Source of the DNA: Octopus vulgaris
Lineage: Eukaryota
Direction of reading: 5' to 3'
DNA: 64,000 nt
Assembly (NCBI GenBank): GCA_951406725.2
Contig: OX597818.1
Span: forward strand, 68,510,001 to 68,574,000
The notes beneath the pieces are model-generated. The model searched no databases and had not been told where the DNA came from. It worked only from the letters and a program-made list of their open reading frames with translations. Positions 2,313 through 53,355 of the stretch are shown in pieces (positions within the stretch are counted from its first letter, which is position 1; each line of letters opens with the position of its first letter). The position numbers were made by a program, and so were the translations under genes.

Positions 2313-2883
2313 TATAATATATATAGAGATAGTGACTTTTTCATCCACAAAGCTAATTTTATAATCTTATACAACATATTATAATATGGTCATTTTAATA
2401 CGCTGTAAGAAATTATAAAATAAATTTTGTGGATGAACAAGCTTCCACACATTTTATTATTAATAATAATATATTCTCAAGACGTCTTTTGCCATCCAGC
2501 AAAGCATAGATGGAATTACACAATCCAGAAGTGACTAACAACAATAGTAATCACAGACATTAAATACTGGTTGAAGTTGTTAGCCATTAACTGGAGCTTA
2601 ACTGAGAGCTAATACGGTCTCCACCCAGATAATATATCCATCCAAACTCACACACACACATATATTAATAAAAAGTAATGTTTGTTGCCACTTCAACGGA
2701 ACAGCATTACTACTATTTTTTAACCCCAGGAGAACACCTTCTCCATCTGATTAACGACACAACCTGTGTCCAATACAATGCAAGCAGGAGAGTGACCCCC
2801 CACTACCATATAGTGAGTGGACAGGACCAGTAGAACAGCTTTGTTTCATAGTATTTGACTTGCCTCAATAGTTTAGAACTAGC

Positions 2884-2933
<50 letters not shown>

Positions 2934-50337: not shown

Positions 50338-51630
50338 CATTATTACTATTATTATTATTATTAAGGCTGTGAAATGGCAGAATCATTAGCTGGCTTGGCA
50401 AAAATACTTACCAGCATCCTGTCAGTCCTTACATTCTGAGTTCAAATTCCACCAAAGCCCATTTTGTCTTTCATTCTTTTGGGGTCCATAAAGTAAAATA
50501 CCAGTTAGACACCGGAGTCGATGTAATCAACTTACCCCTCCTCTGAAGTTGCTGGCCTTGTGCCCAAATTCGAAATCCTTTTTATTAGCATTAAGTGAAG
50601 AGCAGCACTTGCCATCAAAGTGACACTGGGGTACAATTACAGGAAACCCCAATATGCCCATCATGGCTACCCGTCTGATAAGGGTACAACACATGCAATG
50701 AAAACCATATGTGCATGATATAGTGACCTTATATCAAGATAAACAGGGCATGACTTGCAAGTGGGGCCCAGTTAGAATTTTCTTCAAGTAGCCCATTCCA
50801 GTAAACGTTACTGAATAAGGGTTGCTTAACGATGATGAATGAAACACCCATATTTGCCTTTCATCCTTCTGAGATTGTTAAAATAATTACCAGCTGAGTA
50901 CTGGAGGCAGTAATTGACTTCAACTCTTCCCCCCCCACCTAGGTTTCACTGTCTATTTTTGCAGGGTGTTTATGTTTGGATGCCCTTCCTAACACCAACT
51001 GCCCTGCAGATATATACATAGATAATGATAAGCATCTTTTAGTTTCTGTCTACCAAATTCATTCTCAAGGGTTTTCTTAGCAGCCCTAAAATTATCATAG
51101 AAGTCAGTTGTTTGATGTGTCAAGAAGTGGATCTGAACCTGAAACCACATCATCATCGTTTATCGTCCGCTTTCCATGCTGGCATGGGTTGGACGGTTTG
51201 ACTGAGGGCTGGCAAACCAGATGGCTGCACCAGGCTCCAGTCTTGATCTGGCAGACTTTCTACCGTTGGATGCCATTCCTAACGCCAACCACTCCAAGAG
51301 TGTAGTGGGTGCTTTTACGTGCCACCAGCCTTGGGGCTAGTCAGGCAGTACTGGCAACGACCTCACTCGAATCTTTTTACACATGCCAACGGCACAGGTG
51401 TCAGTAAGGTGATGCTGGTAACGATCCCGCTCAAATGGTGCCTCTTACATGCCACCGGTGTGGAAGTCAGTTAGCCACTCTGGCAACAATCACGCTCGGA
51501 TGGTGCTCTTAGCACCCTTCTAGCACGGGTCACAAGTGCCAGTAAGTCGAAGCTGGTCATGTTTAGGAAATAAACTTCTTAACCACACAGTCATGCTTGC
51601 CCTATACAATATTATTACAATATATTATAC

Positions 51631-51695
51631 TATAGGTGCTTGTGACTGAAGATGAGGCAAATAGCTCGAAACTGTGTCAGTTTCGCGATCCTATT
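51631..51695 (+). ncRNA. Type I hammerhead ribozyme, complete predicted fold
   Basis: Stem I ATAGG/CCTAT, internal loop, TTGTGA/TCGCGA; CTGAAGA (51646-52); bulged T; stem II GAG/CTC; GAAA (51668-71); stem III ACTG-TGT-CAGT; GUU triplet with predicted cleavage after 51682. Confidence 0.75.
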
Positions 51696-52396
51696 AGCTG
51701 CTAGGGGGTAGTAGGGTTCGCTCCCCCTGATAGTAATATATTGTCTATAAAGAGTGCAAAGTGTTGCAGCAATAACCAGCTGGCAGAGAATCTGCCTGGG
51801 GTTAAATTAGTTGTATCATTCTGATTGGATTAACTTAGTTGTAACATGACTGACTGGCTTCTGTGCAGGTGGCACGTAAAAAGCACCAACTGATTGTGGT
51901 CATTGCCAGCCCCACTCTGATTCCTGTGCTGGTGGCATGTAAAATGTTAGGAAACACTGCTAGATCAGACTGGAGCCTGGTGCAGCCACCTGGCTTCCTA
52001 GACCCCAATCAAACCGTCCAACCCATGCCAGCATGGAAAACGGACATTAAACGATGATGATGATGATGAATGTTTGATCTGATGACTGGATTTATTGTTT
52101 AGTATCTGTTACTACTCTGATCTCTTCTTGAGGTTTTATAACTTGCTATTTTGCTTGTTGCAAATCAGTGACCAATGGTCACTTTGCTTAAAATATATTG
52201 TTAGTGGAAGTGGATTCTGGCTAGCACACTACCATGCAGGTATTCGCAACTGAAGATGAACCAAATAGCTTGAAACTAGGGGTAGTATGAGTTTGCTCCC
52301 CCTGCTGGCAATATATCGTATATAAAGGGTTGCACTGATAACCAGCTGGTGGAGAATCTACCTGGGGTTAAACTAGTAGCAACAATCAACAACAAC
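51631..52396 (+). mobile_element. Two direct copies of a hammerhead-bearing structured unit (51631-51815 and 52236-52396) separated by a family C element and unique DNA
   Basis: Shared CTGAAGATGA..CAAATAGCT.GAAAC, AGGGG-TAGTA...GCTCCCCCTG, and ATAACCAGCTGG..GAGAATCT.CCTGGGGTTAAA. Copy 2 lacks 29 nt covering stem III and the cleavage site. Confidence 0.75.
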
Positions 52397-53355
52397 CACT
52401 TCGATGTGGCAACCAGTTTTGCTGTAGACTATATTTTACTATTTTACTGTATCAAAATACAGAACTGTAACTTTACAATGGATAAAAACAATTCGAAAAG
52501 TATAGACTGCCAGTAATATTATGAAAGTATTCCATATGGATGTTAAAGAAGTTTAATAGCCTCCTGCATTTACCAAAGTTACAAGAGGTTGGACTGTTTC
52601 TGCAAAGAAATGGCTTTGATCTTTTAGAATATGTGCTTCATGTCTGGATGCACCATTCCTAGCATGGAAGCTTCAATTGCAAAATATTAGATGTAGATTT
52701 GTTTCGGTTATGTAAACAGAGGAAAAATAGATTGCTATGTTCTGCAAAGACAAGGATAATATTTCTATCAAAGAATATATATATATATAATTCATGGTGA
52801 ACAGAAATGAGAATTCTAAGCAACCAACTACTAATTTTCCATAATTTTCTGCAGAGAATGGAAGATTGAAGCAATTTTCAAATTTACAAGCAGCAAGTTT
52901 GAAACAAATAATTTTTCTTAGCTTTTTTTTCTTTATTTTCTTGAAATCTGGTGGAACATAGAAAACATGAATGTAGTTTGCATTATATAATAACACTGAC
53001 ATGAAGAAATATTAAAATATGTCTTCACACTTTTGTTTAGTTAACACTAGAAAAACATTGTGAAAATTTACAACTGGAACTAAGAAAATATTCATATAAC
53101 CATTTATATTTCAGACAAAGAACTTTTAGAATTAGAAACATTCTTCAGTGATTTTGGTTTAAAGGTGATTCCCAAAGTTTCCAGGTTTCTACAATTCAGT
53201 CGTTGATTCTACATACTCTGTTCAATTCAACTTTAAGTGGATCTCATAATGGAATGGACATTAGAAAGAACCATATGGAAGTAGAAACATTCAAGATGTA
53301 ATCTTTAAGTAGAAATTTACTCTCAGAAATGTCAAGACATGAAATATTCTGCTCT

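What the first reader, a model, noticed from the sequence alone, without database searches (positions are those of the whole stretch)
51631..52396. Candidate retrozyme or ribozyme-headed non-autonomous retroelement
Seen: the hammerhead heads a unit present twice in direct orientation, with cores 604 bp apart (~380 bp if the intervening family C element is removed). Each unit has a hammerhead, an AGGGG(G)/(C)CCCCT hairpin, a terminal hairpin, and TGGGGTTAAA; copy 2 ends in a (CAA)n-like run. There is no tRNA head and no ORF. Known: metazoan non-LTR retrozymes are short tandem repeats with type I hammerheads that yield monomeric and circular RNAs. Inference: this is either a cephalopod retrozyme dimer or a SINE-like element whose 5' end is made by self-cleavage rather than a Pol III promoter. 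I cannot tell whether the family is already catalogued.
Basis: partly seen in the sequence, partly recalled or inferred. Interest (0 to 1): 0.75.

Follow-up and report, generated by a model that had tools for sequence, protein, structure and literature searches.

The report
Decayed Penelope-borne hammerhead retrozyme copy
This is one broken copy of an old, scattered family of 362-base protein-free repeats that carry a predicted self-cutting hammerhead RNA motif and were likely pasted into the genome by Penelope-type retrotransposon enzymes, a kind of element already known in animals.

Summary
Copy 1 holds a complete type I hammerhead motif (51640-51688). Copy 2 does not: a 30-nt deletion removes half of stem III, the cut site and one stem I strand. 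The two copies are consecutive parts of one 5'-truncated, about 1.6-unit insertion of a circularly permuted 360-364-nt monomer, split by an unrelated repeat. The hammerhead lies inside the monomer, not at its head, and the (CAA)n run is internal, so the SINE reading fails.

The family is dispersed and old: best identity between loci is 88.6%, and none of 50 loci has two complete hammerheads. Insertions show the Penelope footprint: 55 of 72 arms end at one of two fixed sites about 57 nt apart, mostly beside microsatellites; 5' ends are scattered; 22 of 50 loci have an inverted arm. The unit closes on itself and no ORF is attached, so it is not an ordinary pseudo-LTR. No autonomous partner was found. 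Cleavage and circular RNA are untested.

Verdict: an apparently extinct non-LTR retrozyme-type family, a new member of a known kind. The scan has noted younger families of this kind on other DNA of this genome and in at least one other.

The parts
51634..51821 (+). Copy 1: 5'-truncated part of the monomer, positions 165-353 of 362
   Evidence: 89.9% identical to the family column majority
51640..51688 (+). Type I hammerhead motif: stem I 51640-45/51683-88 (6 bp, 2 G-U), core 51646-52, one extra U at 51653, stem II 51654-56/51665-67 (fourth pair is a G-G mismatch), GAAA 51668-71, stem III 51671-74/51678-81, predicted cut between 51682 and 51683 (GUU here; C at this position in 51 of 62 family pieces)
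   Evidence: sequence
51690..51752 (+).
   Evidence: predicted fold
51822..51846 (+). About 25-nt linker resembling a local duplication of 51799-51819 (86% over 21 nt); origin not resolved
   Evidence: family D12
51847..52069 (+).
52072..52427 (+). Copy 2: a full turn of the monomer (position 362/1 round to about 27 of the next turn, family 3' site A) with deletions of about 30 nt and 9 nt; exact end blurred, weaker alignment runs to 52444
   Evidence: 86.8% identical to the column majority
52182..52240 (+). 5' arm of the long rod (monomer 109-167)
   Evidence: predicted fold
52250..52275 (+). Remnant of the second hammerhead: core and GAAA present, stem II weakened, 3' half with the cut site deleted
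52379..52396 (+). (CAA)n-like run: internal monomer sequence (about positions 345-359) with a 3-nt insertion, not a tail

Best explanation
This is one decayed, 5'-truncated insertion (about 1.6 units, split by another repeat) of an old dispersed family of non-coding 362-nt repeats with an internal hammerhead motif, likely a non-LTR retrozyme that was copied into the genome by a Penelope-type reverse transcriptase-endonuclease, probably from a one-unit RNA circle. Shown: the monomer, its circular permutation, the hammerhead motif, two fixed 3' ends about 57 nt apart, scattered 5' ends, inverted 5' arms, microsatellite flanks, and the age of the copies. Inferred, in falling confidence: (1) a Penelope enzyme nicked AT-rich or microsatellite DNA and started reverse transcription at one of two internal sites of the RNA, often on both DNA ends, giving back-to-back arms with one end of each kind (about 0.85); (2) the ancestral hammerhead cut multimeric transcripts into monomers (about 0.8); (3) the template was a ligated circle, which lets the enzyme pass the cut site and run beyond one unit (about 0.55); (4) the family C fragment and the deletion came after insertion. 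The locus today would give no unit-length RNA; copy 1 alone might still cut a transcript that reads through it.
For: Monomer of 360-364 nt in 6 of 6 measurable copies among 9 tried. 28 of 72 arms span more than one monomer, 4 span two cut sites, longest 635 nt. 3' ends: 37 at site A, 18 at site B, 17 elsewhere, i.e. 55 of 72 against 11% expected; simple repeat at the flank in 34 of 55 A/B ends, 0 of 17 others, 10.6% of 10,000 random positions. Opposite-strand arm head-to-head in 22 of 50 loci (counted by eye); of 12 with both ends classed, 10 have one A and one B end (p 0.0065). Independent set: 14 of 28 arms end at A or B, and 8 of 17 loci have an inverted arm. These match the published Penelope signature: partial tandems, inverted 5' copy, tail on one end (10.1101/2021.04.23.441226, passages); two internal start sites, AT-rich target, both strands extended (PMC11167929, passages). 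Pieces within one locus share 247 non-majority bases against 97 expected over 52 pairs (about 208 against 92 without two probable later duplications). Column-majority circle folds at z -6.6; 21 natural copies at z -0.6 to -5.7. Three rod pairs switch T-A to C-G between two subfamilies. Penelope-type RT plus GIY-YIG elements with an open 765-aa ORF exist in this genome. Copy 1 stops at position 353, not a family end, and copy 2 starts 9 nt later in register.
Against: No autonomous partner shares sequence with the family: 0 hits in 30 GIY-YIG loci and 8 extended regions, out of 6136 candidates of which 150 were scored. No array of two or more full units and no locus with two complete hammerheads among 50. 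Covariation is thin: the three double changes track one subfamily split, only 1 of the top 25 mutual-information column pairs is a predicted base pair, and RNAalifold on the decayed copies found no stable consensus fold. The hammerhead fold lies 3.8-4.5 kcal/mol above the predicted minimum. The two window copies share 2 non-majority bases against 2.0 expected, so their common origin rests on register alone. Copy 2 has no clean microsatellite at its 3' flank. Samples are biased to long, well-preserved copies that contain the hammerhead, which inflates the 59 of 72 arms crossing the cut site. An uncut multimeric RNA would leave the same footprint as a circle.
Confidence: 0.8

Rival explanations
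1. The family is the ordinary pseudo-LTR (3' end) of an autonomous Penelope-like element, seen as solo and truncated pieces.
For: Same insertion footprint as Penelope elements. Penelope pseudo-LTRs carry type I hammerheads with an extra base between positions 9 and 10.1, as here (PMC4209133, passages). Retrozymes are related to pseudo-LTRs in frogs (10.64898/2026.07.22.740005, parts 1-3 of 5). Penelope ORF remnants lie within 1.5 kb in 2 of 50 and 1 of 17 loci.
Against: Sequence past both 3' ends leads back into the same monomer, in 28 of 72 arms for more than a full turn. The remnants are not contiguous with the unit, and the one beside L028 has a different short hammerhead motif next to it. 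The 5' flanks of 32 loci without an abutting inverted arm share only a SINE and short simple or unassigned matches. The hammerhead has canonical 6-bp and 4-bp helices rather than the minimal form.
Confidence: 0.07
2. Penelope-mobilised, but the template was an uncut linear multimer read from a master array; the hammerhead was a passenger and no circle was involved.
For: In vitro, hammerhead cleavage was not needed for Penelope insertion and unprocessed RNA was the main substrate (PMC11167929, passages). Only 1 of 9 frog retrozyme dimers cleaved in vitro. The active fold is not the predicted minimum. No arm exceeds 1.75 units.
Against: No master array was seen among 67 distinct loci. The hammerhead and rod are complete in the column majority of the family. 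Related mussel, coral and axolotl elements make circles (PMC7229834, passages and sections 14 and 17).
Confidence: 0.3
3. A SINE-like element whose 5' end is made by hammerhead self-cleavage and whose 3' end is a (CAA)n tail.
For: No tRNA head; copy 1 happens to begin just before the hammerhead.
Against: 5' ends are spread over the whole monomer, with 3 of 72 near the cut site. The hammerhead is internal and its cut lies 3' of the core. The CAA run is internal. Copies run through the unit junction.
Confidence: 0.02
4. Two independent insertions of the same family landed side by side.
For: The copies are 80.5% identical, no closer than unrelated loci, and share no excess of diagnostic bases.
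Against: They join in register within 9 nt, same strand, and copy 1 does not end at a family 3' site. Old tandem pieces elsewhere are about as diverged.
Confidence: 0.08

Closest known systems
Metazoan non-LTR retrozymes (Cervera and de la Pena 2020, PMC7229834; read: passages and sections 14 and 17; supplement not readable)
   Same: Non-coding monomer in the 350-390-bp range of the mussel family, canonical type I hammerhead, head-to-tail arrangement, strong predicted self-pairing, co-existence with Penelope elements.
   Different: Old and dispersed; no long arrays and no intact dimer in the loci seen; GC 45.0% is at the stated limit; no RNA evidence. Octopus and cephalopod do not occur in the paper's main text; its supplement could not be read and may list more species.
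Animal retrozymes as non-autonomous Penelope derivatives (Li, Clavereau, Pollet 2026, 10.64898/2026.07.22.740005; read: parts 1-3 of 5)
   Same: Proposed dependence on Penelope elements; families with many monomers and few repeats.
   Different: Their evidence is co-occurrence and pseudo-LTR homology in 35 species without molluscs; here the evidence is insertion anatomy and no homologous pseudo-LTR was found. The locus fails their definition of an active retrozyme.
Penelope-like elements with endonuclease (Craig et al. 2021, 10.1101/2021.04.23.441226; Frangieh et al. 2024, PMC11167929; Cervera and de la Pena 2014, PMC4209133; passages only)
   Same: 5' truncation, partial tandems, inverted 5' copy, two 3' ends, AT-rich or microsatellite targets, type I hammerhead with an extra base after A9.
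   Different: No ORF; the spacing between the two ends is about 57 nt against the usual 30-40; the unit closes on itself.

Membership tests
Non-LTR retrozyme | Canonical type I hammerhead motif | tested here: met
   Complete by my criteria in 10 of 59 spanning pieces, including window copy 1; core intact in 26 of 59; sub-threshold Rfam hits in 6 of 6 best copies
Non-LTR retrozyme | Short non-coding monomer (150-450 bp) | tested here: met
   360-364 nt; no long ORF
Non-LTR retrozyme | Tandem head-to-tail copies, dimers to multimers | tested here: inconclusive
   28 of 72 arms exceed one unit and 4 span two cut sites, but none reaches two full units; only the best 40 candidates were scored per search
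Non-LTR retrozyme | Highly self-paired RNA | tested here: met
   Predicted only: z -6.6, 70% paired; covariation thin
Non-LTR retrozyme | Self-cleavage | not testable with these tools
   Needs in vitro transcription
Non-LTR retrozyme | Monomeric linear and circular RNA in tissues | not testable with these tools
   Only assembled contigs were available
Active retrozyme (Li et al. 2026 definition) | [quoted passage not shown] | tested here: not met
   Copy 2 deleted; 0 of 50 loci have two complete hammerheads
Penelope-type insertion | Two fixed 3' ends (tail on one end) | tested here: met
   55 of 72 arms; 10 of 12 two-armed loci have one of each
Penelope-type insertion | Inverted 5'-truncated copy and variable 5' ends | tested here: met
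   22 of 50 and 8 of 17 loci; starts spread over the monomer
Penelope-type insertion | AT-rich or microsatellite target | tested here: met
   34 of 55 against 10.6% background
Penelope-type insertion | Identifiable autonomous partner sharing sequence | tested here: inconclusive
   No homology in 30 plus 8 regions; 150 of 6136 candidates scored
Pseudo-LTR of an autonomous Penelope element | Repeat contiguous with an RT-endonuclease ORF | tested here: not met
   0 of 67 loci contiguous; 3 with separate remnants nearby
SINE | tRNA-derived head or fixed 5' end, and a simple-repeat tail | tested here: not met
Catalogued repeat family (Dfam or Repbase) | Match to a named consensus | not testable with these tools
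   No repeat library available

The most novel reading that the evidence does not exclude
The family is a fossil record of rolling-circle reverse transcription of a ribozyme-made RNA circle by a Penelope enzyme working from both ends of a DNA break: one end starts at site A and the other at site B, both in small U-rich hairpin loops of the circle, on a single template, with the hammerhead held in an inactive fold. The papers read here propose this step but do not show it.
Probability: 0.45. Interest if true: 0.5.

Novelty: new member of a known kind. Interest (0 to 1): 0.3.

Why it matters
It extends retrozyme-type elements to a cephalopod-type genome (octopus by the scan's earlier notes; taxon not tested here) and gives footprint evidence, from an old family, that Penelope enzymes carry them, a link so far argued from co-occurrence and homology. 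It also shows that such families have come and gone over time. This particular locus is a poor experimental subject: the second ribozyme is deleted and no young copy was found. Four paper searches listed no report of cephalopod retrozymes; most subscription journals and repeat databases were not searched.

Tried and rejected
Rfam: no hit at curated cut-offs in the window, and no hammerhead among 11 weak hits over the locus.

Autonomous partner: family profile against 30 GIY-YIG loci and 8 extended regions gave 0 hits. Remnants beside L028 and L030 were followed and are separate. A comparison of 3' ends of autonomous elements was swamped by microsatellite matches and gave nothing usable.

Expression: no RNA holder listed. 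Four guessed-RNA contig sets laid on L020 gave only fragments of other copies; one laid on the window gave no cover over either hammerhead. Contigs cannot show ends, level or circles, so this is no evidence either way.

Pre-insertion state: contig sets X10-X12 cover 51527-51793 and 52350 onward, and two of them the right junction of the inserted repeat; no joint skipping the repeat was among the 15 of 260 joints shown.

Selection on the core: conservation 0.94 at 11 core positions against a median of 0.90 elsewhere, in a sample picked partly by the core; not taken as evidence.

Covariation by mutual information and RNAalifold: not supportive.

Target-site duplication for the inserted repeat: no clear one found by eye.

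Young subfamily: none seen; best identity between loci 88.6%, median 78.0% over 1836 pairs; exact 29-nt core 6 times and exact 20-nt 3' motif 23 times in 2.8 Gb.

Rows dropped: 16 of 66 loci as overlapping; arms scoring under 80 left out of the tallies; 6 of 23 loci already held; 1 of 17 new loci gave no arm.

Full report
Observation. The two copies are real, with cores at 51646 and 52250. Copy 1 has every element of a type I hammerhead: a 6-bp stem I, the conserved core, one extra U, a stem II reduced to 3 bp by a G-G mismatch, GAAA, a 4-bp stem III and GUU at the cut site. It is the only hit of my descriptor in the window, against a mean of 0.0 in 100 shuffled windows. An extra base at that position and 6-bp and 4-bp helices are described for metazoan hammerheads (PMC4209133, passages). 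Copy 2 lacks about 30 nt from within stem III to past the cut site, so it is not a ribozyme. Rfam misses the window copy and gives sub-threshold hammerhead hits on all 6 best relatives.

The family. Searches of the window's own genome gave 642 and 884 first-look candidates, 40 scored each, at 75-87% identity for the main matches. 66 loci reduced to 50 distinct ones. The unit is a 360-364-nt monomer that is circularly permuted: past its end the sequence re-enters its start. The hammerhead lies at positions 171-219, at the tip of a predicted rod (109-167 with 221-284); the column-majority circle folds at z -6.6 and 21 natural copies at -0.6 to -5.7. Three rod pairs change on both sides, but all follow one subfamily split, and a mutual-information scan does not single out paired columns, so structure support is mainly complementarity. 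The family is old: median 86.5% identity to the majority in 63 pieces, at most 88.6% between loci, 6 exact copies of a 29-nt core in 2.8 Gb, 10 of 59 hammerheads complete and never two in one locus. Copy number is probably in the hundreds; this is an estimate from candidate counts, not a census.

This locus. Copy 1 covers monomer positions 165-353 and copy 2 resumes at 362/1 and runs a full turn to about position 27. Between them are a 25-nt linker like a local duplication and a fragment of an abundant unrelated repeat, 51847-52069. Copy 1 does not stop at a family end and the register is kept within 9 nt, so the simplest reading is one arm of about 590 nt (1.6 units) split later. Shared-variant analysis does not add support for this pair (2 against 2.0 expected).

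Insertion anatomy. Of 72 arms scoring 80 or more, 37 end at site A (positions 15-36), 18 at site B (74-90) and 17 elsewhere; 11% would fall in A or B by chance. Simple repeats follow 34 of 55 A/B ends, 0 of 17 others and 10.6% of random positions. 5' ends are spread, with 3 of 72 near the cut site. 22 of 50 loci have an opposite-strand arm back to back; 10 of 12 classifiable pairs have one A and one B end (p 0.0065). A second set picked by a 20-nt motif repeats the pattern more weakly: 14 of 28 arms at A or B with a lower score cut-off, inverted arms in 8 of 17 loci. Pieces within a locus share more rare bases than pieces from different loci (247 against 97 over 52 non-independent pairs), as expected if both arms came from one template. 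Both sites fall in or at the edge of small hairpin loops in the predicted fold. Published Penelope insertions have partial tandems, inverted 5' copies and a tail on one end, and a purified Penelope protein starts at two internal sites, prefers AT-rich DNA and extends both strands.

Partner and rivals. The genome holds Penelope-type elements with RT and GIY-YIG domains and open ORFs, but none examined shares sequence with the family. No family copy is contiguous with an ORF in 67 loci, which argues against a plain pseudo-LTR. A circle explains arms that pass the cut site and exceed one unit (28 of 72), but an uncut multimer would do the same, and cleavage was dispensable in vitro for the one Penelope element tested. 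Expression could not be judged.

Comparison and verdict. It works like the non-LTR retrozymes of mussel, coral and axolotl and fits the proposal that they depend on Penelope elements. Membership is met for motif, size and fold, inconclusive for tandem arrays, untested for cleavage and circles; the definition of an active retrozyme is not met. The scan's earlier notes report younger families with the same footprint in this genome and at least one other; a look-up by sequence found none for this stretch, and I did not test whether any of their 358-362-nt families is related. I had noted the monomer, inverted pieces and microsatellite ends before reading them; the term 'two-armed' and the idea of copying one circle from both DNA ends come from those notes. 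Verdict: real but partly misdescribed, a decayed copy of an apparently extinct family, new member of a known kind, interest 0.3.

Noticed in passing
L004, L014, L023, L025, L034 (5' ends of arms); window about 51567-51610, minus strand: The head of an abundant SINE-like repeat faces away within 60 nt of an arm's 5' end in 5 of 72 arms, against 0.47 expected from its density. In L004 and L014 the whole SINE sits 10-20 nt inside the inverted arm near the inversion tip, so it came later. The window copy has a similar short head fragment about 30 nt upstream, seen by eye and but not counted by the script. Possible causes: preference for the AT-rich palindromic tip, or better survival of interrupted palindromes.
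   Followed up: partly
window 2707-2888: A second, more decayed fragment of the same family on the minus strand (positions 186-348, E 1.2e-10), with a weak plus-strand piece beside it.
   Followed up: no
L097:430-5672 (G000:C16): Young autonomous Penelope-type element: 456-bp direct repeats 99.3% identical, a 346-aa ORF without Pfam match, a 765-aa RT plus GIY-YIG ORF, (TA)n flanks; no canonical hammerhead found by my motif scan; many copies with the same 781-aa open frame.
   Followed up: partly
L099:726-1625, minus strand (G000:C4): A near-identical tandem repeat of about 495-nt period with its own hammerhead-like motif in each unit, between (TA)n runs, about 1.8 kb downstream of a Penelope ORF; unrelated in sequence to this family; either that element's pseudo-LTR or another, young retrozyme.
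   Followed up: no
L105 about 6420, minus strand (G000:C2): Short hammerhead-like motif at the 5' edge of a decayed Penelope remnant, about 150 nt downstream of a family copy.
   Followed up: partly
window 51601-51633: AT-rich 30-nt stretch just upstream of copy 1 that resembles the near-palindromic segment of the rod arms; it may be a remnant of an inverted arm or of a longer 5' part. Not resolved.
   Followed up: no
window 51686 and 51691: Contig sets X10-X12 (three organism labels) carry C-to-T differences here; the first turns a stem I G-C pair into G-U, so the hammerhead is still changing among close relatives.
   Followed up: no
window 51148-51243 and 51967-52062: Two family C copies face each other as a 96-nt inverted pair, 90% complementary, enclosing copy 1; probably chance given the abundance of that repeat.
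   Followed up: no
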